Shown here in pieces: positions 1 through 43,728 of a stretch of DNA of 43,728 nt. The stretch's first letter is position 1. Each line of letters opens with the position of its first letter. The DNA is from a virus (lineage: Duplodnaviria; Heunggongvirae; Uroviricota; Caudoviricetes). A program made the translations under genes and the position numbers. The notes below the pieces were generated by a model. That model was not told the DNA's origin, searched no databases, and was given only the letters and a program-made list of their open reading frames with translations. The stretch covers positions 1-43,728 of IMG/VR virus record IMGVR_UViG_3300015181_000003. One strand, given 5' to 3'.

Positions 1-341
1 AATTTGTTAAACGCTTCCTTAGAGAAAGGCTCGTCGTCAAAGCTCCAGCCGTTTACGACTTCTGCCGCAAGTTGCCGGTTGAGGTCTTCCGCCAGTTCGT
101 TAACCGCCAGGTTATATTCAGTATAGTCACCAGATTCTTTGGCGGCTTTTTCCAGTTCTTCAAAACGCGCCAACCCGCGACGGTACGCAATAATGAAAGC
201 ACGCCCCGCTTTAACGGCGACATCCGCATCGGGACTTACAACGTTAAGCCACTCACCGGAGTCTTCGCCGTTTGGCAGCAGAATAGGCATCTTCTTGCCT
301 ACCAGTGCTTTCTCTTCGAAATAAAAATCAGAAAGTTTCAT
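1..341 (-). CDS. tail assembly chaperone (gpG-like), 5' portion; gene crosses the window junction
   Basis: Minus-strand ORF from ATG at 341..339 (AAGGA 7 nt upstream) runs off the window start. Because 1..141 repeats 43588..43728, it continues to a TAG at 43509..43511 (420 nt, 139 aa, in frame). Sits immediately upstream of the tape measure gene. Confidence 0.5.
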   Translation of the reverse strand, partial: MKLSDFYFEEKALVGKKMPILLPNGEDSGEWLNVVSPDADVAVKAGRAFIIAYRRGLARFEELEKAAKESGDYTEYNLAVNELAEDLNRQLAAEVVNGWSFDDEPFSKEAFNK

Positions 342-449
342 TCTTTAATCCTTTGGTTAAGAGGTTACAGGTTAATGGTAAATGCGCCAGACGGGAACCA
401 CCCGCTTTTCGTGTGCGACACTAGGCGCAAAATTATTCTATCACATTAC

Positions 450-509: not shown

Positions 510-701
510 ATGTCCAGTTTACCAGTTTCCTTAATTCTGTTTGCACTGCTCGCTTATTTCGCGCCTTTCCTGGTCGCGTACTTCCGTAACCATAAAGCGA
601 AGTTAGCGATATTCATGGCTAATCTGTTTCTTGGTTGGATTCTGCTGCCGTGGGTCTTTATTTTAATCTGGGCGTGCAACTCGAATGTCAAAGAGAAGTG
701 A
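510..701 (+). CDS. small membrane protein, superinfection-immunity (Imm)-like
   Basis: 63 aa, two hydrophobic helices, motif NLFLGWILLPWVFILIWA resembling the Imm family signature (recalled, not searched). Strong SD GAAGGGGG before ATG 510. Confidence 0.55.
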   Translation: MSSLPVSLILFALLAYFAPFLVAYFRNHKAKLAIFMANLFLGWILLPWVFILIWACNSNVKEK

Positions 702-739
702 GCTAGTATAGGACAAATCCTAAACACGAGGAAGTAAGC

Positions 740-1870
740 ATGGCCCAGAAGAAAATAACCGACGAGCAGTTACAGGAAGAATTGAACGCCGGAACAAAGA
801 TTATCGACATATCCCGTAAATACGGCATCTCAGACCGCGTTATTCGTATCCGTAAAGCGAAGCTGGCGAAGAAAGGCGTAGGTCATGGTCGTGATGTTAG
901 TCACCTTGTGCCAGACGGCTACAAGATTAAAGGAACGTCATCACTGGTGGACGAGTTCGGCAACACTAAGCTGCAATGGGTTAAGACCGACACCGATGCG
1001 GAACGTCAGGTCGAGTTAATGAAGGCCATAATCGAGGGCATGAAGTCGGAGATTACCCCCGTTGCTCCTGTTAAAGCCGTTCGCGCCAAACGGGACGACA
1101 AGCTACTCAACCTTTACACTGTGTCTGATTTCCATCTCGGTATGCTGGCCTGGGCCGACGAGAGTGGCGACGACTGGGATATGAAGATTGCAGAAGACCT
1201 GTTCTCCCGTTGGTTCGATGCGGCATTCCAGAAAGCACCGGATGCGGGGACTGGGGTTATTAACCTGCTGGGCGACTTCGCGCACTTCGATAGTCTGGTT
1301 GCCGTTACACCTGCAAGCGGTCACGCCCTTGACGCTGACACCCGTTACCAGAAACTTGTCCGCTACATGATTCGCATGCTCCGCCGTGTTGTCGATATGG
1401 CGCTGGTTAAGCATAAAAATGTTCGCTTGCTTATCGTGCAAGGGAATCACGACGAAAGTGGCATGATTTGGTTGGCTGAGATGTTCAGTACGCTGTATGA
1501 CAATGAGCCGCGTGTGTTCGTCGATACGTCACCGGATGTTTACAAGATGGTGCAACACGGCAAAACGACGCTGTTCTTCCATCACGGGCATAAAGCACGA
1601 TTCGACGCTATTGAACCTGTTATGATTGCCAAGTTCCGTAAAGCGTTCGGCGAGAGTGTTTACAGCTACGCCCACGTAGGCCATCTGCACCACCAGAAGA
1701 TTGTAGAAAGCCGTAACATGATTGTTGAGCAACACCGCACCTTAGCGGCTAAAGACGCCTACGCCTCTCGCGGCGGATGGATGTCAGGCCGTAGTGCGAA
1801 TGTAATTACTTATAGCGCCGAATATGGCGAGGTAGCACGTTTAACTATTTCACCGGAGATGCTTGGATGA
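740..1870 (+). CDS. HTH-domain protein fused to calcineurin-like metallophosphoesterase (Mre11/SbcD-like or phosphodiesterase-like)
   Basis: 376 aa. N-terminal HTH-like segment (KIIDISRKYGISDRVIRIRKAKL). Metallophosphoesterase motifs in order: SDFHLG (DxH), GDFAHFD, GNHDE, HHGH, GHLHH. SD GAGGAAG before ATG 740. Confidence 0.7.
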   Translation: MAQKKITDEQLQEELNAGTKIIDISRKYGISDRVIRIRKAKLAKKGVGHGRDVSHLVPDGYKIKGTSSLVDEFGNTKLQWVKTDTDAERQVELMKAIIEGMKSEITPVAPVKAVRAKRDDKLLNLYTVSDFHLGMLAWADESGDDWDMKIAEDLFSRWFDAAFQKAPDAGTGVINLLGDFAHFDSLVAVTPASGHALDADTRYQKLVRYMIRMLRRVVDMALVKHKNVRLLIVQGNHDESGMIWLAEMFSTLYDNEPRVFVDTSPDVYKMVQHGKTTLFFHHGHKARFDAIEPVMIAKFRKAFGESVYSYAHVGHLHHQKIVESRNMIVEQHRTLAAKDAYASRGGWMSGRSANVITYSAEYGEVARLTISPEMLG

Positions 1871-2097
1871 CTTCAAAATACAACCGCACAATGACAAACA
1901 CTCACGGCAGCACTATGGCAGTAGACGTTTATGACGTGCTACGCGCTTTCGACATCCGCGACCCTGCGTTGCAACACGCATTGAAGAAGCTACTGTGCAT
2001 GGGCCTTCGCGGGCACAAAGACACCGGAACCGACTTAGCGGAAGCAATTGAAAGTCTGGAGAAGTTACGGGAGTACCGGAGTAATATTGATGAGTGA
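1867..2097 (+). CDS. hypothetical protein (76 aa), coupled to upstream gene
   Basis: ATG overlaps the stop of 740..1870 (ATGA); followed directly by a terminator hairpin. Confidence 0.45.
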   Translation: MTSKYNRTMTNTHGSTMAVDVYDVLRAFDIRDPALQHALKKLLCMGLRGHKDTGTDLAEAIESLEKLREYRSNIDE

Positions 2098-2100
2098 GAA

Positions 2101-2124
2101 AAAGGCCCCTTTCGGGGCCTTAGT
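2101..2124. terminator. rho-independent terminator hairpin (bidirectional)
   Basis: Stem AGGCCCC / GGGGCCT with loop TTTC, T-rich on both sides; lies between convergent genes ending at 2097 (+) and 2126 (-). Confidence 0.6.
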
Positions 2125-2125
2125 T

Positions 2126-2758
2126 TTATCGTTGCGACTTAATTACAGAAACGACTCTTGGATATATCCTCCCGTCTACGGAATCCATAAGCGGCTTAAG
2201 TTCTTCTGCTATTTCCAATTTCCGCAACGTTCTGGCCTTGATGGCTTCGTCCAAGTCAATAAAATCGCCTAAGTTTTCTCGCACCCCGGTTATGGGGTTA
2301 TTAACACGGCATCGTATCTTGCCGTTTGTTCTTCTATAAGTAAGGCCTATTGGTAGGTTTCCTCTGGCCGCTGCGCTGTCGGTCAGGAAGTTGTTTAAAA
2401 CTCTTGGGACGAAGATGCACGTCTCTGGCGAGTATTCTTTGGCGTCTGTAAGCAAATCCTTGTCTACATGCCAACCATCTACGTAATTATCTTTATACCA
2501 TTTAAAGTAGTTGGAGAAATACAGCCAGTCTTCGCATACTACCACACCCGCGTATGTTGGGTGCTTAGTGGCCCCGTGGTAGCACCTGAATATCATCGCA
2601 TACCAAATATCGTACACTGGGTGGTTAACAGACTTTTTGCCGTTGAAAATACTAGTGGTAAAATCAGCGTCGTTGATGCCGACGCCACAGATTGTTTTAC
2701 GGCATGATACCGCCCGTTTTGATGCAGGTATCTTTTCAAATTCTTCATACAGAAACAT
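2126..2758 (-). CDS. HNH-family homing endonuclease-like protein with C-terminal AP2 domain (free-standing)
   Basis: 210 aa. N-terminal motif YDIWYAMIFRC...YAGVVVCEDW...GWHVDKDLL...CIFVP typical of phage HNH endonucleases; C-terminal GLTYRRTNGKIRCRVNNPITGVRENLGDFIDLDEAIKA resembles an AP2 domain. Flanked by terminators on both sides. Confidence 0.55.
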   Translation of the reverse strand: MFLYEEFEKIPASKRAVSCRKTICGVGINDADFTTSIFNGKKSVNHPVYDIWYAMIFRCYHGATKHPTYAGVVVCEDWLYFSNYFKWYKDNYVDGWHVDKDLLTDAKEYSPETCIFVPRVLNNFLTDSAAARGNLPIGLTYRRTNGKIRCRVNNPITGVRENLGDFIDLDEAIKARTLRKLEIAEELKPLMDSVDGRIYPRVVSVIKSQR

Positions 2759-2797
2759 TATTCACCTCGTCAGGCTCGTGTATTTATCAGATAAAGG

Positions 2798-2826
2798 AAA
2801 GAGAGGGCACGACCCCTCTCTTTTTC
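2798..2826. terminator. rho-independent terminator (bidirectional)
   Basis: Stem GAGAGGG / CCCTCTC with loop CACGAC followed by TTTTT; lies just downstream of the major tail protein gene end. Confidence 0.6.
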
Positions 2827-2865
2827 GCCCGCTAAAGCTATCCTTTACACTTCTTATACCACAAG

Positions 2866-4032
2866 TTATGCGTAACTAATACGTTGAATTACGATAGACG
2901 ACTGATATTGGTTGCCCGTGGACTGCCCTTCTATACTTTGGGTAATTGATTCCGGGCCAGATATTTCTGGTGTAACCGCCGTAAGCTCGGCACGTTTCAG
3001 GCTGAAAGACATAGCCCCGTTTACCCCCGCCAGAATAGAGTTAATCTCCACCTGCTGCTCGTTGATAAACTTCTGAATCATAGCCATGTCGTACAGCTTG
3101 CCGGAGATGGAGAATGTGTTAGCTGCGCGGCCACGTTCCACGAACGCCACGCTACTGTTGCCGAGTTCGAACTGCGCGGAAGCACCGTTGTCGTTGGTGA
3201 TGGTCAGAGTATCGCAACGTAACGGCGTAGAACCGTCGAACACGGACACATCTACGGATGAGAACGGCTCGTCAGTGAATGTGACCTGAGAGAAGTCGGA
3301 ACCCGCTGGCGGGCCGGAAAGAATCTCCTGACTCAGACCGATGAACGGGAAGCTGCCAGTTACCATCGCGTTTACGGCCTGCTCGATGGTGAAACCGGAG
3401 ATTTCTACTCCTTTGGTCAACATGTACGCGTCGGGGTTCCCGCACTGTCCTTTGAACCATGTCAGGATGGAGAACGTCTTACATGCGTTACCGGTTTCCA
3501 ATTTATCGCCTGTTTTAGCGTCGGTGGTTACAGTCTCTGCTGTCAGCGTGTGCTGGATACCCGCACCCGTAACTACAAGAGCAGAAACCTCAGTCACGAT
3601 AAACGGTTTTGCGTTGTCGCCGGTTAAGTCGGTGAACGCAATCAGGTCGCCAACTTCTACACCGTCAGTAATGAAGCTACCGGCAGCGCGGGTGAATGTT
3701 TTACCTGCTGGAGCGACCGTAATTTCAGCACCCGTAATCTCTACCCCATCCTGCCACGTAGAAGTCATAGCACCCGCAAGGAAATCATCCTGGCTACGTG
3801 AGCTAAGTTCGATGGCGTACTCCCCGCTGACCTGTTTGTTACCGGTGCGGATGGATGTGGTTTCTCTGCTGCCGTCGAGTTCGTTGGAAGTCAGCGCATC
3901 ACGGGTTACCGCGGGAACACCGCCCGTATTGCGCAACGGCGACCATACCGGGTTACTTGGTGTTACGCCCGGGGTAACTTCCGCCACATAGAATTGCGCG
4001 GTATTCGCGCCCTTAAAAGGAGTTGTAGCCAT
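2866..4032 (-). CDS. major tail protein (putative)
   Basis: About 388 aa. Positioned after neck/tail-completion genes and before the chaperone and tape measure genes. Track start 4038 is GTG; the ATG at 4032 follows a GAGG SD. Confidence 0.5.
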   Translation of the reverse strand: MATTPFKGANTAQFYVAEVTPGVTPSNPVWSPLRNTGGVPAVTRDALTSNELDGSRETTSIRTGNKQVSGEYAIELSSRSQDDFLAGAMTSTWQDGVEITGAEITVAPAGKTFTRAAGSFITDGVEVGDLIAFTDLTGDNAKPFIVTEVSALVVTGAGIQHTLTAETVTTDAKTGDKLETGNACKTFSILTWFKGQCGNPDAYMLTKGVEISGFTIEQAVNAMVTGSFPFIGLSQEILSGPPAGSDFSQVTFTDEPFSSVDVSVFDGSTPLRCDTLTITNDNGASAQFELGNSSVAFVERGRAANTFSISGKLYDMAMIQKFINEQQVEINSILAGVNGAMSFSLKRAELTAVTPEISGPESITQSIEGQSTGNQYQSSIVIQRISYA

Positions 4033-4034
4033 AT

Positions 4035-4493
4035 TCACAGCCTCTTGGTGAATGCAATAAAGTTAATTGACAATGGTCTTTTGGCCCATCCGTTTTCTAC
4101 AATCAGCGGCCCCAGGCTAACCGATTGAACCTCGGCGCAGATGTCGTTACGTGAAAATGACTTACCTGCTTTAAACGCCGTGTTAAGTAAGTCTGCCATT
4201 TTATTGACTGGCGCGCTACCTTTCACCGATGCGTAGTTAATGTCTACCTGATAGATGCCAGAGCGTTGTTCCGTGAAGAACAAATCCGCCTGTTCCGTAT
4301 CAGCGAGTAGCATGTAACTCGCCAGATACGGCGTATCTGTTGACGTCGGCGCGTCGATGTTTTCAAGCACAACCTTGATGCCGTTGGCGGTTCCGAATGT
4401 TACCAGCGGCACGTCAAACGCTTTTGTTAAGTCCTCAAAGTAGCCCATCATAGACCCCACATTTAGCTTCTTCCGAGGTAAGACGGCGGTCAT
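4035..4493 (-). CDS. tail terminator/completion-like protein
   Basis: ORF immediately upstream of the major tail protein gene with overlapping stop/start; the real start may be the ATG pair near 4451. Confidence 0.4.
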   Translation of the reverse strand: MTAVLPRKKLNVGSMMGYFEDLTKAFDVPLVTFGTANGIKVVLENIDAPTSTDTPYLASYMLLADTEQADLFFTEQRSGIYQVDINYASVKGSAPVNKMADLLNTAFKAGKSFSRNDICAEVQSVSLGPLIVENGWAKRPLSINFIAFTKRL

Positions 4494-28671: not shown

Positions 28672-28696
28672 AAGGCCCTTCATTGGGCCTTTTTAC
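28672..28696 (+). terminator. rho-independent terminator
   Basis: Stem AAGGCCC / GGGCCTT with loop TTCATTG followed by T5. Confidence 0.6.
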
Positions 28697-28706
28697 CGGA
28701 GTCAGA

Positions 28707-29181
28707 ATGGAACATATAAAAGATTTTCTAAGCTACGACCGAGAGACAGGGGTATTCACGTGGATACAGCCTACTTACCGTCGAGGGCGACCGGGAGACA
28801 TCGCGGGGTGCATCAATAGTAGTGGATACTGGCGAATTCCGTACATGGGTCGATATTACATGGCGCACAGGCTAGCGTGGTTTTTCGAGTATGGTGAATG
28901 GCCCGAAGGCCCTCTTGACCATATAAACCGTGACAGGTTAGACAATAGGATTTCTAACCTAAGGAAAGCAACAACCGCTGATAATGTGCGAAACGCTAAA
29001 AATAAGGGAGCTAGAACAGGAGTTAAGGGGGGTAGTTAAAAACGGCAACCGATTTTACGGGCGTGTGCATTTTAACTACAAAAGTTATAACGCCGGTAGC
29101 TACGGAACTCTTGAAGAAGCAGAAAGCGCTGTAAAGAAATTAAGAGAAAAACTGCACAAGGAATTTTATTGCCATGACTAG
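28707..29181 (+). pseudogene. HNH-AP2 homing endonuclease, split by a frameshift in a G6 run
   Basis: Frame 1 (28707..29039) carries the HNH motif YMAHRLAWFFEYGEWPEGPLDHINRDRLDNRISNLR. Frame 2 (28984..29181) carries an AP2-like domain GVVKNGNRFYGRVHFNYKSYNAGSYGTLEEAESA. Frames switch at GGGGGG 29027..29032; one extra G would fuse them. Confidence 0.55.
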
Positions 29182-40871: not shown

Positions 40872-43151
40872 TTAGTACCCCGGCTGACCGCGAGTAGAGC
40901 GGCGAGCTTTAGAAATCGGTGAGTTGTTGTCCTGTAACTGCGACGCTACTGTTTCACTGATTATAATACGTAACCGCCCTTCGTCATCACGTTCTGTTAC
41001 AGCGGAATCAACGCGTCCGGTGGTGTTGTTGACGATTGTCACGTTATCGCCGCCGGACGGGCCGCCGTTTTGCCCCATAATCTCTTTCATCTGCTGCGCT
41101 GTGCGGACACGCGATGCGCCCGCCGGCATGATAACTTCTGGTTTACCGCGTTCCGCTATAGTTGACATCTGGCCCGCTGATAACTGACCACCCTGCTCGC
41201 GTGCCGAGCGGATTTTGGCGATATTAGCCAGCCCCGCAGCAACGGCGGTAGCCGCGGCAACCGGTGCCAGGAAGGGGCCGACAACAGGGATAGCAGCCGT
41301 TGACTTATACGCCTCGATAGCCGATGTGTATGTTGCGATAGTGGCCTGGGCAATAGCGAACGCCTTGTATGCGGAGGACGCCTCGCCAAATGCCGTTTTA
41401 GCATTAGCTGCCATGTCACCGAAAGAACTACCTAAAGCATCGGCGCGCTTCGCGGCATACTGCTCATTGATAGCGTTAAGCGCCGCCTGATACTGTTCCT
41501 CGTTAATCAGCCCCTGTTCGCGGTATTTATCTGCGACCGCCAGCTTCTGCTGTTCCTGGATGTCGAGAAGCTCAAGCTCAGCGGCGTTCTGACCCATAAT
41601 CTGAGCCATGAAGTCGTCGCCTTTCTGTTGCTTTTCCTGGGCTTCTTTCTGGCGTTTATCCAGTTCATCTTGTCGGTTTTGCCCGGCTTCGAGGACAATA
41701 GCCGTTTTTGCTTGCTCGTATTCTTTCAGAGACAACGCGCCCTGGCTGTAGAACTCTTTTGCTTTAGCCAGTTTCTGCTGTTCCTGCGCATCGATAGCTT
41801 TTAACTCGTCGTTATTCTGGCGGGCCAGAGTATCGAGATAATCTTGCGCCTGTTTACGCAATTGCTCCGCTTTCTTGGCGGCGGCTTTCGCGTCTTTGTC
41901 GTTGGTGTTTCCTGTTCCACCGGCCCCGCCAGTTCCCCCCTTTCCGTCAACAAGGCTGGCCAGGTCAATTTCTTGCTTCTTGCGCTCGTTGTACTGCTTG
42001 CGCTGTTCCTCAATTTCTTTCTTACGCTGCTTAGACCTGTTGGTAATGGCCTGGGATTCTGCTTCTGCACGTTTTATGCTGGCGTCGTATGCGGCGTCAG
42101 CCTCCGCGGTCAGGTTTTTAAATGTGAGCGCTGCCGTTTTGCTAGGGTCGAACACGTCGGCAAGGGTCTGTCCTAACGCTACGGCGTAATCGTCAATGCG
42201 CTGGAACCACGCAATAACCTCGTGGAATGTCTGCTGAATGTCGGGCAACCACTCTCTGATAGCGTCAGGGATAGCTCCCAGCGAGTCTGACATGTCCGCG
42301 GATTTGTCCTCGGTGTCGTATGCCAGGTCATTCAAGGCGTCAGAAATAAACTTGAACGACTCATTGAACAGCGTCGCCCAGTCCTGGAGTGTGGAGGCTA
42401 TCTCATTAGACGCGATGGCGTCGGTGAGTGCGGTGATAGCGTCTTCCGCTGTTGCTGCTTGTTCACCTACCGCGTCACCAAAACCAGACTGTGCTACGGC
42501 AAGAACAAGGCCGTCGAAGGAGTCGGCGAGGCTCGACAACTGACCATCTAAGGTCTTCGAACGCGTCTCCATCGCTCCGGCGAAATCAGTGTTGCCGATG
42601 TTTAGCAGGTATTTCTGAATCTCTTCGGAGTTCTTCTTAACCGTGGTCGTTACGCCACGGAACGTAAACGAAACTGTATCTGCCTGCTGTGACGATTTAA
42701 TGCCAAACTCTTTTAAGCGCTCAAATTCAAATGTACTGGCGTCCGCCACGGCCTCAATCATCTGATTAAGGTCTTTACCCATCGCCGCGGCGGTGTTGCC
42801 GTAGGAAATTAATGCTTCTTTGCTGGGGTTTAGGCCGAGAGCTACAAGTTTTGTGAAACCCTCTACCGCCTGATTGAGACCGTACGGGGTTTCTTTTGCG
42901 AACTGTTGCAGGACGCTGAAAGCCTTAGCCGCGTTCTCAGCACTCCCGGTCATTGTGATGAGGCCGGAGTTCAGCTTATCGAAATTGCGCTGAGAGTCCA
43001 CCAGCGCACTGAACACCTGCTTAGCGGTTTCCAGGCTGACAACGGCGGCAGCCGCAGCACCTGCGGCTTTAGTAAGCCCGTTCAGTTGTGATGTGACTTT
43101 ATCGACGCCGGTTGCGGATACTCGTACTATCAAGCTAGCGATATCAGCCAT
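40872..43151 (-). CDS. tape measure protein
   Basis: About 759 aa from ATG 43151 (track start 43166 is TTG); long Ala/Gln/Glu/Lys-rich coiled-coil; follows the chaperone genes. Confidence 0.8.
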   Translation of the reverse strand: MADIASLIVRVSATGVDKVTSQLNGLTKAAGAAAAAVVSLETAKQVFSALVDSQRNFDKLNSGLITMTGSAENAAKAFSVLQQFAKETPYGLNQAVEGFTKLVALGLNPSKEALISYGNTAAAMGKDLNQMIEAVADASTFEFERLKEFGIKSSQQADTVSFTFRGVTTTVKKNSEEIQKYLLNIGNTDFAGAMETRSKTLDGQLSSLADSFDGLVLAVAQSGFGDAVGEQAATAEDAITALTDAIASNEIASTLQDWATLFNESFKFISDALNDLAYDTEDKSADMSDSLGAIPDAIREWLPDIQQTFHEVIAWFQRIDDYAVALGQTLADVFDPSKTAALTFKNLTAEADAAYDASIKRAEAESQAITNRSKQRKKEIEEQRKQYNERKKQEIDLASLVDGKGGTGGAGGTGNTNDKDAKAAAKKAEQLRKQAQDYLDTLARQNNDELKAIDAQEQQKLAKAKEFYSQGALSLKEYEQAKTAIVLEAGQNRQDELDKRQKEAQEKQQKGDDFMAQIMGQNAAELELLDIQEQQKLAVADKYREQGLINEEQYQAALNAINEQYAAKRADALGSSFGDMAANAKTAFGEASSAYKAFAIAQATIATYTSAIEAYKSTAAIPVVGPFLAPVAAATAVAAGLANIAKIRSAREQGGQLSAGQMSTIAERGKPEVIMPAGASRVRTAQQMKEIMGQNGGPSGGDNVTIVNNTTGRVDSAVTERDDEGRLRIIISETVASQLQDNNSPISKARRSTRGQPGY

Positions 43152-43476
43152 GGTTTCTACCTTCAAAGATTGCTTCTAAGCCCATGATAATGTCTATCTC
43201 GAACAGGCTAAGCTGTTTTTGCGTAACATCGAGATAGGCTTTCAGGTCTTGCCACGTAACAGATTCTCTTGCGAACAATACTACAGCGTCCTCGCGCACG
43301 TGTCGCGTAAACTTAATGTCGCAATACGTCTCAAAGGTGGATATAAAAAGGGGCGGGCATTCTGGCCCACCCCGTCGCGCTGCACGTTTTTTCTTATCGA
43401 TTACACCCATCGCGATAAGCGCCTGTTCGTGACCGTCAGCTATAGAATCAAACTCTCTGATTTTATGCTTATCCAC
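43144..43476 (-). CDS. tail assembly chaperone T segment (probably expressed as a G-T fusion by -1 frameshift)
   Basis: No ATG start (track start is GTG). This frame stays open upstream to about 43533 and overlaps the last 22 nt of the gpG-like ORF in the -1 frame; its stop overlaps the tape measure start. Confidence 0.5.
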   Translation of the reverse strand: MDKHKIREFDSIADGHEQALIAMGVIDKKKRAARRGGPECPPLFISTFETYCDIKFTRHVREDAVVLFARESVTWQDLKAYLDVTQKQLSLFEIDIIMGLEAIFEGRNHG

Positions 43477-43508
43477 AAACTCGTAGGTGGCGAACCTGTA
43501 CAGCGCGT

Positions 43509-43728
43509 CTACTTTTCCTGTAATGCCTTGCGCTCAGCGTTATGGAACGCCGCCACCTGGGTTCCAAGCCCTTTGAACTGGTCTAGCAATTTGTTAAACG
43601 CTTCCTTAGAGAAAGGCTCGTCGTCAAAGCTCCAGCCGTTTACGACTTCTGCCGCAAGTTGCCGGTTGAGGTCTTCCGCCAGTTCGTTAACCGCCAGGTT
43701 ATATTCAGTATAGTCACCAGATTCTTTG
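43509..43728 (-). CDS. tail assembly chaperone (gpG-like), 3' portion
   Basis: Continuation of the ORF starting at 341 across the junction; 43588..43728 duplicates 1..141; stop TAG at 43509..43511. Confidence 0.5.
   Translation of the reverse strand, partial: KESGDYTEYNLAVNELAEDLNRQLAAEVVNGWSFDDEPFSKEAFNKLLDQFKGLGTQVAAFHNAERKALQEK

What the first reader, a model, noticed from the sequence alone, without database searches (positions are those of the whole stretch)
2101..2826. Free-standing HNH-AP2 homing endonuclease gene boxed in by two terminators
The 210-aa HNH/AP2 gene (2126..2758) is a single-gene unit bracketed by hairpin terminators at about 2101..2124 and 2798..2826, between tail genes. 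This is the classic moron or mobile homing-endonuclease layout and is a second, intact family member alongside the frameshifted copy at 28.7 kb.
Basis: partly seen in the sequence, partly recalled or inferred. Interest (0 to 1): 0.45.

Follow-up and report, generated by a model that had tools for sequence, protein, structure and literature searches.

The report
Mobile atypical HNH-AP2 nuclease gene cassette
A 740-base selfish gene cassette sits just after the tail-tube gene of this E. coli phage; it encodes a known but unusual type of homing nuclease, and the hairpin upstream of the gene is part of a conserved RNA leader rather than a plain terminator.

Summary
A 210-aa ORF lies at 2126..2758 on the minus strand, with strong hairpins at 2102..2121 and 2798..2823.

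The window is a Kagunavirus, an E. coli siphophage. The ORF belongs to a 740-bp insert (2130..2869, with a 4-nt TTAT ambiguity). The insert lies exactly between the tail-tube stop codon and a resident bidirectional terminator. Only 12 of about 118 related phage records carry it, always at this site, and most of the rest have a clean empty site.

dN/dS of 0.05-0.15 shows the protein is maintained by selection. Nuclease activity and homing are inferred, not shown.

The 28.7-kb gene is a different family, a classical HNH_3-AP2 gene broken by a G6-versus-G5 frameshift.

Unexpectedly, the upstream "terminator" is stem P3 of an int-alpA-like RNA leader (Rfam RF02996). The same leader precedes several kinds of HNH genes in unrelated phage contigs.

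Verdict: an ordinary new member of a known family, with one interesting regulatory detail.

The parts
2102..2121 (.). Resident bidirectional intrinsic terminator hairpin (AAGGCCCC-TTTC-GGGGCCTT). It ends the plus-strand genes (stop codon at 2095..2097) and now also the nuclease gene (stop codon at 2126..2128). It is not part of the insert.
   Evidence: z = -4.3 on both strands. The same hairpin lies directly next to the tail-tube stop codon at empty sites in Bas71, phiEc3, AV104 and fBC-Eco01.
2130..2869 (-). The 740-bp insert, i.e. the mobile cassette. Its ends are ambiguous by 4 nt because TTAT occurs at both junctions, so 2126..2865 is equally valid.
   Evidence: Comparison of the empty site ...GGGGCCTTAGTTTTAT|GCGTAGG (Bas71) with the window junctions ...AGTTTTAT|CGTTGCG... 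and ...CAAGTTAT|GCGTAAC. Twelve records carry the insert, all at this site.
2126..2758 (-). ORF of 210 aa, an IPA-HNH family protein. Its stop codon occupies the position that the tail-tube stop codon has at empty sites.
   Evidence: PHROG 953, 4e-70; ICP1 Gp209: 2e-19 and 99.6%; dN/dS 0.05-0.15.
2354..2701 (-). N-terminal domain (aa 20-135), a putative atypical His-Me-finger nuclease. The beta-beta-alpha unit spans aa 96-125 (2384..2473). Nearly invariant residues are D99, K100, D101, Y109, C114 and N122. There is no conserved His.
2201..2353 (-). C-terminal AP2 DNA-binding domain (aa 136-186).
2763..2768 (-). Shine-Dalgarno GAGGTG, 4 nt before the ATG. It is conserved in the distant relative L012.
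2791..2848 (-). int-alpA-like structured RNA leader. P1 pairs 2848..2841 with 2798..2791. The invariant core UAGCUUUAGCGGGCGAAAA is at 2840..2822.
   Evidence: Rfam RF02996 gives a full-length match of 19-25 bits, below the 35.8 gathering score. Elements with the identical core score 36-54 bits in L014-L019. P1 and P3 covary. The leader is 96-100% identical among insert-bearing phages while the ORF has dS of 0.22-0.57.
2853..2861 (-). Extended -10-like box TGGTATAAG, 4 nt upstream of P1. It is a putative promoter belonging to the cassette (inferred).
   Evidence: Read directly from the sequence. TGGTATA is invariant in L012. Similar boxes precede the element in L014, L015/L018 and L016, and at window 367..431. 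The two-hexamer promoter scan did not flag it.
2866..4038 (-). Tail tube gene (Phage_tube_2). Its 3' end is the presumed homing target region. The codons next to the junction differ between insert-bearing genomes (GTAACTAAT) and empty genomes (GTAGGTGAT).
   Evidence: 2e-36; 5 of 5 against 4 of 4 genomes.

Best explanation
The window is a Kagunavirus genome. Positions 2130..2869 are a 740-bp mobile cassette that sits precisely between the stop codon of the tail-tube gene and the phage's own bidirectional terminator.

Read on the minus strand, the cassette contains, in order:
- a -10-like box;
- a Shine-Dalgarno sequence;
- a 210-aa gene of the IPA-HNH homing-endonuclease family.

The protein has a C-terminal AP2 domain that binds DNA (shown by homology and fold). 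Its N-terminal domain has a beta-beta-alpha topology. In that domain the usual HNH histidine is replaced, and D99/D101, Y109 and N122 are nearly invariant.

The most likely mechanism has four steps, all inferred:
1. In a mixed infection the protein recognises the empty junction of a cassette-free relative, that is, the GC-rich terminator stem plus the last tail-tube codons.
2. It nicks or cuts there with a PacI-like Asp/Asn-metal plus tyrosine active site.
3. Recombinational repair copies the cassette into the break, together with the nearest few bases of the tail-tube gene.
4. The structured leader keeps expression low or timed, by attenuating read-through from the highly expressed tail-tube gene and/or by heading the cassette's own transcript.
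For: Identity of the phage:
- 92-93% identity to fFiEco03 and related Kagunaviruses.

Precise insertion and sporadic presence:
- Empty and filled junctions were compared directly.
- 12 of about 118 records (8 distinct phages) carry the gene, all at this site.
- At least 133 records have an uninterrupted empty junction.
- A 62%-identical homologue in an unrelated metagenomic phage sits at the same place: after the tail-tube stop, before an AAGGCCCC..GGGGCCTT hairpin, and with the same leader core.

Family membership:
- ICP1 Gp209, a founding IPA-HNH member, matches at BLASTP 2e-19 and hhalign 99.6%.
- The hit spectrum (ICP1, Rheinheimera Barba phages, Pseudomonas Flu phages) matches the description in PMC10448857.

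AP2 domain:
-.

N-domain:
- Confident AF2 models show strands at aa 96-99 and 115-118 and a helix at aa 119-125.
- PacI lacks the catalytic His and uses a Tyr in the omega loop, with Asp and Asn holding the metal (PMC5714182 and PMC4081073).
- In this family D99, K100, D101, Y109 and N122 are kept in 147-149 of 150 diverse representatives, while H97 is kept in 45 of 150.

Selection:
- dN/dS is 0.05-0.15 at dS up to 0.57.

Linked changes beside the junction:
- Three substitutions within 13 nt of the junction separate 5 of 5 filled genomes from 4 of 4 empty ones.

Hot spot:
- A different HNH_3-AP2 gene occupies the same junction in KMB36 and Ro145c2, with the terminator hairpin duplicated.

Leader:
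-.
Against: - No nuclease activity or homing has been shown for this protein, and the 2023 paper as read here reports none for any IPA-HNH member.
- The canonical catalytic histidine is absent.
- No Pfam HNH model matches, and hhalign finds no similarity between the N-domain and classical HNH_3 (3% probability).
- The cassette is not more conserved than its flanks (88-95% against 80-98%), so there is no sign of a recent sweep. Strong purifying selection over dS of 0.57 would also fit a domesticated DNA-binding protein.
- The junction-linked substitutions rest on only nine genomes and could reflect shared ancestry.
- The promoter and terminator roles of the leader are read from sequence only.
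Confidence: 0.68

Rival explanations
1. It is a domesticated or degenerate nuclease relative. The protein would be a sequence-specific DNA-binding protein (AP2 plus an inactive His-Me-like domain) that the phage keeps as a regulator or anti-host factor. In that case it is a 'moron' acquired by recombination, not an active homing gene.
For: - There is no catalytic His and no Pfam HNH hit.
- Purifying selection is very strong over deep divergence at a single site.
- The cassette is no more conserved than its flanks.
- There are precedents. His-Me domains without His or Tyr are inactive DNA binders, as in Smad MH1 (PMC5714182). Phage AP2 proteins can act purely as repressors, as in the CasPR preprint 10.64898/2026.02.23.707548.
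- The layout, a promoter-like box, then the gene, then a terminator, is the classic moron layout.
Against: - The residues that stay nearly invariant in thousands of relatives are the kind used for catalysis (Asp, Lys, Asp, Tyr, Asn). The Tyr lies in the omega loop, as in active PacI.
- Family members occur in several copies per genome beside polymerase, RNR, terminase and tail genes, and often as frameshifted wrecks. That is selfish-element behaviour (PMC10448857).
- A 62%-identical homologue sits at the identical junction in a distant phage.
- CasPRs have a CapR zinc domain, not this N-domain.
Confidence: 0.22
2. It is an ordinary accessory gene that was ancestral at this site and was lost repeatedly by deletion. 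In that case there is presence/absence polymorphism without any mobility.
For: - dS of up to 0.57 between two lineages of the gene at the same site shows long residence.
- The region is a general variable spot with other accessory genes, such as an acid phosphatase/PNK and small ORFs.
Against: - Empty sites are exact, with only 4 nt of microhomology and no remnants, in at least 133 records including the sister genus. Many independent precise deletions are unlikely.
- Insert-bearing phages are scattered among insert-free ones in flank similarity, giving a mosaic pattern.
Confidence: 0.07
3. It is a packaging-associated HNH that assists the terminase.
For: Many siphophages encode such an HNH (PMC3592412, listed).
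Against: - The gene is not next to the terminase.
- It lacks the canonical H-N-H and the CxxC zinc site.
- It carries an AP2 domain.
- It is absent from about 90% of relatives.
Confidence: 0.01

Closest known systems
IPA-HNH homing endonuclease genes (ICP1 Gp59, Gp115/116, Gp209; Barth, Dunham & Seed 2023, PMC10448857)
   Same: - The same protein family (2e-19 and 99.6% to Gp209).
- A divergent N-domain that Pfam HNH_3 does not see, plus a C-terminal AP2 domain.
- A free-standing gene next to an essential gene.
- Sporadic presence among close relatives.
   Different: - The host phage group is Kagunavirus. I did not see the group named in the passages of that paper I read, and I did not check its supplementary tables.
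- The insertion site is defined here to the base.
- The cassette carries an int-alpA-like leader, which four other IPA-HNH loci examined lack.
- Neither that paper nor this work has biochemistry.
Classical HNH_3-AP2 homing endonucleases (Magnani et al. 2004, as cited in PMC10448857). Examples here are the 28.7-kb gene of this window and the KMB36 gene.
   Same: - The AP2 DNA-binding domain (hhalign 97.5%).
- A small free-standing gene placed beside a GC-rich terminator hairpin.
- The KMB36 type uses the very same junction.
   Different: - The N-domains cannot be aligned.
- The classical proteins keep the D-H...N...N motif and hit PF13392.
PacI restriction endonuclease (PDB 3M7K / 3LDY)
   Same: - It is a His-Me finger without the catalytic His, with a Tyr in the omega loop as general base and Asp/Asn on the metal. 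The family here keeps exactly Asp, Tyr and Asn.
   Different: - Sequence identity is 13%.
- PacI has two Cys4 zinc sites and no AP2 domain, and is a homodimeric restriction enzyme.
- Residue equivalence was not verified.
Regulated free-standing phage homing genes such as T4 I-TevI and Aeh1 mobE (from my own knowledge of Edgell and Gibb's work; not checked here)
   Same: Expression of the nuclease is insulated from the neighbouring highly expressed gene by hairpins and leaders upstream of the ORF.
   Different: The leader here is a defined Rfam-type three-stem motif that is shared between unrelated HNH genes.
int-alpA RNA (Rfam RF02996, listed as an sRNA)
   Same: - A three-stem architecture with P1, P2, a GAAAA linker and P3.
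- Relatives with the identical 20-nt core pass the Rfam threshold.
   Different: - The window copies score below threshold (19-25 and 32.5 bits) because P3 is lengthened.
- The context is the 5' leader of nuclease genes and of the tail chaperone operon, not int/alpA genes.

Membership tests
IPA-HNH homing endonuclease family | Significant sequence similarity to the founding ICP1 proteins | tested here: met
   ICP1 Gp209 (MW794143 119487..120119): BLASTP 2e-19 with 31% identity over 166 aa; hhalign 99.65%.
IPA-HNH homing endonuclease family | N-domain too divergent for the Pfam HNH_3 profile | tested here: met
   None of 129 family members hits any Pfam HNH model at E <= 0.01.
IPA-HNH homing endonuclease family | C-terminal AP2 DNA-binding domain | tested here: met
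His-Me finger (HNH) nuclease superfamily | Beta-beta-alpha-metal fold | tested here: inconclusive
   [not shown]
His-Me finger (HNH) nuclease superfamily | Catalytic histidine at the end of strand 1 | tested here: not met
   The position is K100 in 148 of 150 representatives. The nearby H97 is kept in only 45 of 150. An invariant Y109 in the loop could substitute, as in PacI, but this was not verified.
His-Me finger (HNH) nuclease superfamily | Asp/Asn metal ligands | tested here: inconclusive
   D99, D101 and N122 are kept in 147 of 150 representatives, and N122 lies on the helix. The geometry was not examined.
Homing endonuclease gene (functional definition) | Presence/absence polymorphism at one precise site among close relatives | tested here: met
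   The same site is used in the distant phage L012.
Homing endonuclease gene (functional definition) | Cleavage of the insert-free allele and super-Mendelian inheritance | not testable with these tools
   This needs enzyme assays and phage crosses.
Homing endonuclease gene (functional definition) | Co-conversion or immunity changes next to the insertion | tested here: inconclusive
   GTAACTAAT (5 of 5 filled genomes) against GTAGGTGAT (4 of 4 empty genomes) within 13 nt of the junction. The sample is small and ancestry was not controlled.
Intrinsic terminator | GC-rich hairpin followed by a U-run | tested here: met
   At 2102..2121 this holds on both strands. At 2798..2823 the hairpin is strong but the U-run is interrupted (UUUCCUUUAU), and that run forms the 3' strand of P1 of the leader.
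int-alpA RNA (Rfam RF02996) | Covariance-model score at or above the gathering score (35.8 bits) | tested here: not met
   Window 2777..2848(-) scores 19.2-25.0 bits and window 367..431(-) scores 32.5 bits. Elements with the identical core pass: L014 39.8, L015 36.2, L016 36.9, L017 50.0, L018 36.2 and L019 53.8 bits. L012 scores 30.3.
int-alpA RNA (Rfam RF02996) | Three-stem architecture kept through compensatory changes | tested here: met
   P1 has seven different sequences that keep 6-8 of 8 pairs (for L016, about 6 pairs by my manual pairing, because the script picked a different 3' partner). P3 has seven different stems, all paired.

The most novel reading that the evidence does not exclude
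The int-alpA RNA motif, an orphan Rfam family listed as an sRNA, may be a portable promoter-proximal leader. It travels with free-standing His-Me-finger nuclease genes of at least four different architectures in unrelated phages. It also heads the tail-chaperone/tape-measure operon of all Guernseyvirinae. If so, it is a cis-acting control element for selfish nuclease expression and for phage late transcription, for example an attenuator or a transcript-stability switch. In addition, the IPA-HNH nucleases may be PacI-like tyrosine enzymes rather than histidine enzymes.
Probability: 0.4. Interest if true: 0.6.

Novelty: new member of a known kind. Interest (0 to 1): 0.38.

Why it matters
As a gene, this is one more copy of a selfish nuclease family that was described in 2023 and is already annotated as 'HNH endonuclease' in sister genomes. 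It matters little for phage biology beyond marking a recombination hot spot at the tail-tube / terminator junction.

Three by-products are more useful:
- The insertion site is defined to the base, and insert-free natural partners exist (the BASEL phages Bas70-76). That makes a direct homing cross and a cleavage assay easy to set up for a family with no biochemistry.
- The family-wide Asp-Lys-Asp / Tyr / Asn signature, together with the PacI fold match, gives a concrete and testable catalytic hypothesis for a family with more than 11,000 cluster representatives.
- The link between an orphan RNA family (int-alpA) and nuclease-gene leaders gives that RNA a context in which its function can be tested.

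Tried and rejected
- Pfam scans of the protein and of 128 relatives gave no nuclease family, only AP2.
- A PDB sequence-profile search gave only AP2/ERF hits.
- hhalign of the N-domain against a 63-sequence classical HNH_3-AP2 alignment gave 3% probability. I therefore rejected the idea that this gene and the 28.7-kb gene are the same family. An HMM cross-search of the six-frame translation agrees.
- CasPR (CapR+AP2 anti-CRISPR repressors) was considered after a literature hit. I rejected membership because CasPRs have a Cys-rich CapR domain and come from Bacillota prophages.
- A PD-(D/E)XK reading of 'DKD' and a hammerhead-like reading of the leader were considered from the sequence and dropped, because the other required motifs are absent.
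- The two-hexamer promoter scan found nothing upstream of the gene. The extended -10 box is my own reading.
- The PacI structure paper (PMC2886031) and the supplement of the paper that defined int-alpA (PMC5737381) are not held. What that paper says about int-alpA's gene neighbours could therefore not be checked.
- Four other IPA-HNH loci (L020-L023) were scanned for the leader and none has it. The leader is therefore not a family-wide feature.
Full report
**1. What is in the sequence**

The ORF at 2126..2758 is real and lies on the minus strand. It encodes 210 aa, starts with ATG, and has a GAGGTG ribosome-binding site 4 nt upstream.

Two hairpins flank it.
- AAGGCCCC-TTTC-GGGGCCTT at 2102..2121 has T-runs on both sides. 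It folds better than all 200 shuffles on either strand (z about -4.3).
- A 10-pair hairpin at 2798..2823 has z of -2.4 to -3.2.

The neighbouring genes are as follows.
- To the right, on the same strand, are the tail-tube gene (2866..4038; Phage_tube_2, 2e-36) and the tail terminator protein gene.
- To the left, on the opposite strand, are a metallophosphatase / DNA-repair exonuclease (740..1870) and a small gene (1867..2097).
- Beyond that plus-strand island, the minus strand resumes with the tail assembly chaperone gene (ATG at 339, running off the window start) and the tape-measure gene at the window end.

The locus therefore lies inside a split tail module. Its immediate left neighbour is not a tail gene.

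**2. Which phage, and the insertion site**

The window is a Kagunavirus (Guernseyvirinae), 90-93% identical to fFiEco03, fPoEco01, fEg-Eco19, PDP21P8, Hrm2 and others. About 118 records share the tail-tube region. Only 12 records, representing 8 phages, contain a close homologue of the ORF, always at this place.

Insert-free relatives such as the BASEL phages Bas70-76 read ...TGA GAAAAAGGCCCCgaaaGGGGCCTTAGTTTTAT|GCGTAGGTGATACG. In them the tail-tube stop codon lies directly next to the terminator. At least 133 records have this uninterrupted junction.

In the window the same two flanks are separated by 740 bp (2130..2869). TTAT occurs at both ends, so the boundaries are ambiguous by 4 nt. The nuclease gene's stop codon takes the place that the tail-tube stop codon has at empty sites.

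The left hairpin is therefore the phage's own bidirectional terminator. The right hairpin is cargo of the insert.

A homologue only 62% identical in protein, found on a 36-kb metagenomic phage contig (L012), occupies the same position. It follows the tail-tube stop and precedes an AAGGCCCC..GGGGCCTT hairpin.

In KMB36 and Ro145c2 the same junction holds a different gene on the other strand. That gene is a classical HNH_3-AP2 gene, and the terminator hairpin is duplicated on both sides of it. The junction is therefore a hot spot for AP2-carrying nuclease genes.

**3. What the protein is**

Pfam finds nothing in the protein itself. PHROGs places it in 'HNH endonuclease' families (phrog_953, 4e-70).

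The family is very large. It has 11,284 representatives of 50%-identity clusters at E <= 1e-3.

The C-terminal third is an AP2 domain.
- A family profile hits WRI1 and ERF1 in the PDB (6.8e-5).
- 37 of 129 relatives hit Pfam AP2.
- hhalign aligns this part with the AP2 part of classical HNH_3-AP2 proteins at 97.5%.

The N-terminal 135 residues are another matter.
- None of the 129 relatives hits any Pfam HNH model.
- hhalign against the HNH_3 domain gives 3% probability.
- Whole-model fold searches see only AP2.

The literature search found the explanation. Barth, Dunham and Seed (2023, PMC10448857) defined 'IPA-HNH' homing endonuclease genes from ICP1 Gp59, Gp115/116 and Gp209. They describe them as too divergent for the Pfam HNH_3 profile, detectable only by HHsearch, carrying a C-terminal AP2 domain, and abundant in Barbaviruses and Flaumdraviruses.

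My tblastn hit spectrum is exactly that one. The ICP1 hit is Gp209. It matches the window protein at 2e-19 and 99.65% hhalign probability. Membership is therefore established.

**4. The active site**

In 130 close and 150 diverse relatives the nearly invariant polar residues are D99, K100, D101, Y109, C114 and N122. The histidine in 'WHVDKD' (H97) is kept in only about a third of them.

The model places D99 at the end of strand 1, Y109 in the loop between the two strands, and N122 on the following helix.

PacI is the known His-Me-finger enzyme in which the histidine is missing. A tyrosine in the omega loop acts as general base, and the metal is held by one Asp and one Asn (PMC5714182 and PMC4081073).

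The family signature fits that scheme, so I infer a PacI-like Asp/Asn-metal plus Tyr mechanism. This step is an inference. The fold match is weak, and I could not superpose residues.

**5. Is the gene functional and mobile?**

Among five insert-bearing phages the ORF has dN/dS of 0.05-0.15 at dS of 0.13-0.57, so the protein is under strong purifying selection.

The ORF is no more conserved than the flanks (88-95% against 80-98%). The cassette has therefore lived in this genus for a long time rather than sweeping recently.

Flank similarities are mosaic with respect to cassette presence.

Three substitutions within 13 nt of the junction (GTAACTAAT against GTAGGTGAT, in the last tail-tube codons) separate all 5 filled from all 4 empty genomes examined. 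This is what co-conversion or target immunity would produce, but nine genomes are too few to exclude shared ancestry.

Taken together, I consider an active or recently active homing gene the best explanation (0.68). The supporting points are the precise junction, the sporadic distribution, the same site in a distant phage, a second nuclease gene at the same junction, and the behaviour of the family elsewhere.

The main rival (0.22) is a domesticated DNA-binding protein.

**6. The upstream 'terminator' is part of a conserved RNA leader**

The 110 non-coding bases between the tail-tube stop and the ATG are 96-100% identical among the five phages. This is far more than the synonymous divergence of the ORF would allow.

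A 22-nt core, GGATAGCTTTAGCGGGCGAAAA, is identical in the distant L012 cassette. The hairpin behind it differs there by compensatory changes.

Searching the exact 20-mer in the three public collections found six further places. Each lies 58-91 nt upstream of an ORF.
- L014: a NUMOD4 + HNH_3 + HTH gene (Pfam).
- L015 and L018: a zinc-ribbon endonuclease-VII-like HNH gene right after an SSB-like gene.
- L017: another such HNH gene.
- L016: a gene related to the IPA-HNH N-domain but without AP2 (PHROGs for L015-L017).
- L019: an unknown bacterial gene.

Rfam identifies all of these as int-alpA RNA (RF02996) above its gathering score, at 36-54 bits. L012 scores 30 bits, and the window copy scores 19-25 bits because its third stem is lengthened.

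The three-stem structure (P1, P2, GAAAA, P3) is kept through many compensatory changes in P1 and P3.

Each element is preceded by a -10-like box, often with an extended TG. In the window this is TGGTATAAG at 2861..2853, 4 nt before P1. The element is therefore probably the 5' end of a transcript. This is my reading of the sequence and is not verified.

A second int-alpA-like element (32.5 bits) lies at 367..431 on the minus strand, directly upstream of the tail chaperone gene. That region is conserved across 485 Guernseyvirinae records.

Four other IPA-HNH loci lack the leader. The leader is therefore not a property of this protein family. It is a module shared among different nuclease cassettes.

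I found no paper in the held library that gives int-alpA a function. The defining paper's supplement is not held.

**7. The 28.7-kb gene**

It is a classical HNH_3 gene (PF13392, 1.5e-15) followed out of frame by an AP2 segment. The break is one extra G in a G-run: G6 at 29027..29032 against G5 in the intact 157-aa gene of phage P AB-2017. This could be a real inactivation or a homopolymer sequencing error.

The gene sits right after a similar hairpin (AAGGCCC..GGGCCTT, 28672..28691). Only 6 of 106 relatives have it.

It shares only the AP2 domain with the gene under study.

**8. Verdict**

The object is a new member of a known kind, an IPA-HNH homing-endonuclease cassette that is already annotated as 'HNH endonuclease' or 'hypothetical protein' in sister genomes.

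Interest in the gene itself is low. The interest score is raised modestly by three things: the testable tyrosine-enzyme hypothesis, the base-level target site with natural empty partners, and the int-alpA leader shared among unrelated nuclease genes.

Noticed in passing
window 2791..2861 (-); L012 3914..3981; L014 12908..12974; L015 7455..7517 (-); L016 615..682 (-); L017 2958..3026; L018 1144..1206; L019 1446..1517 (-): An int-alpA-type RNA motif (Rfam RF02996) with the identical core AUAGCUUUAGCGGGCGAAAA lies in the 5' leader of His-Me-finger nuclease genes. These genes have at least four architectures: IPA-HNH+AP2, an IPA-like N-domain alone, NUMOD4-HNH_3-HTH, and zinc-ribbon endoVII-like. 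This holds for 6 of 7 independent instances. P1 and P3 covary, and a -10-like box precedes P1.
   Followed up: partly
window 367..431 (-): A second int-alpA-like element (32.5 bits, E 0.005 for the whole window) lies directly upstream of the tail assembly chaperone gene (ATG at 339, minus strand). It is preceded by TGATAGAAT. The region is conserved in 485 Guernseyvirinae records, so it belongs to the core genome.
   Followed up: partly
window 28708..29181 (+), G-run 29027..29032: A classical HNH_3-AP2 homing gene is split by one extra G (G6 against G5 in phage P AB-2017). It lies between the ssDNA-binding/annealing protein gene and the DNA polymerase gene, right after the hairpin AAGGCCC..GGGCCTT (28672..28691). 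Only 6 of 106 relatives have it. The frameshift may be real decay or a homopolymer sequencing error.
   Followed up: partly
L003 (KMB36) 1281..1845; L010 (Ro145c2YLVW) 1587..2135: The same terminator / tail-tube junction holds a different plus-strand HNH_3-AP2 gene, flanked by two copies of the AAGGCCCCTTTCGGGGCCTT hairpin. Both AP2-type nuclease genes of this phage group thus lie beside GC-rich terminator stems, which may be what the AP2 domains recognise (a hypothesis).
   Followed up: partly
window 2110..2113 compared with L001, L002, L005-L008: The terminator loop reads TTTC in some genomes and GAAA in others, on the same strand. The palindromic hairpin is therefore present in both orientations among close relatives.
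   Followed up: no
window 2870..2882; loci L001-L010: The last tail-tube codons differ in step with what occupies the junction: GTAGGTGAT at empty sites, GTAACTAAT with the IPA-HNH cassette, and GTAGCTAAT with the HNH_3-AP2 gene.
   Followed up: partly
window 510..2097 (+) and the equivalent regions of L004, L008, L009 and L010: The plus-strand island between the tail tube and the tail chaperone varies between relatives. Extras include an acid phosphatase / polynucleotide kinase gene (phiEc3, K-01), another HNH gene between the exonuclease and the small gene (AV104, Ro145c2), and small ORFs (fBC-Eco01, phiEc3).
   Followed up: no
window 1..339 (-) and 43144..43728: The tail assembly chaperone ORF runs off the window start and appears to continue at the window end. 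The 43,728-bp window is therefore probably a complete, circularly permuted genome opened inside that gene.
   Followed up: no
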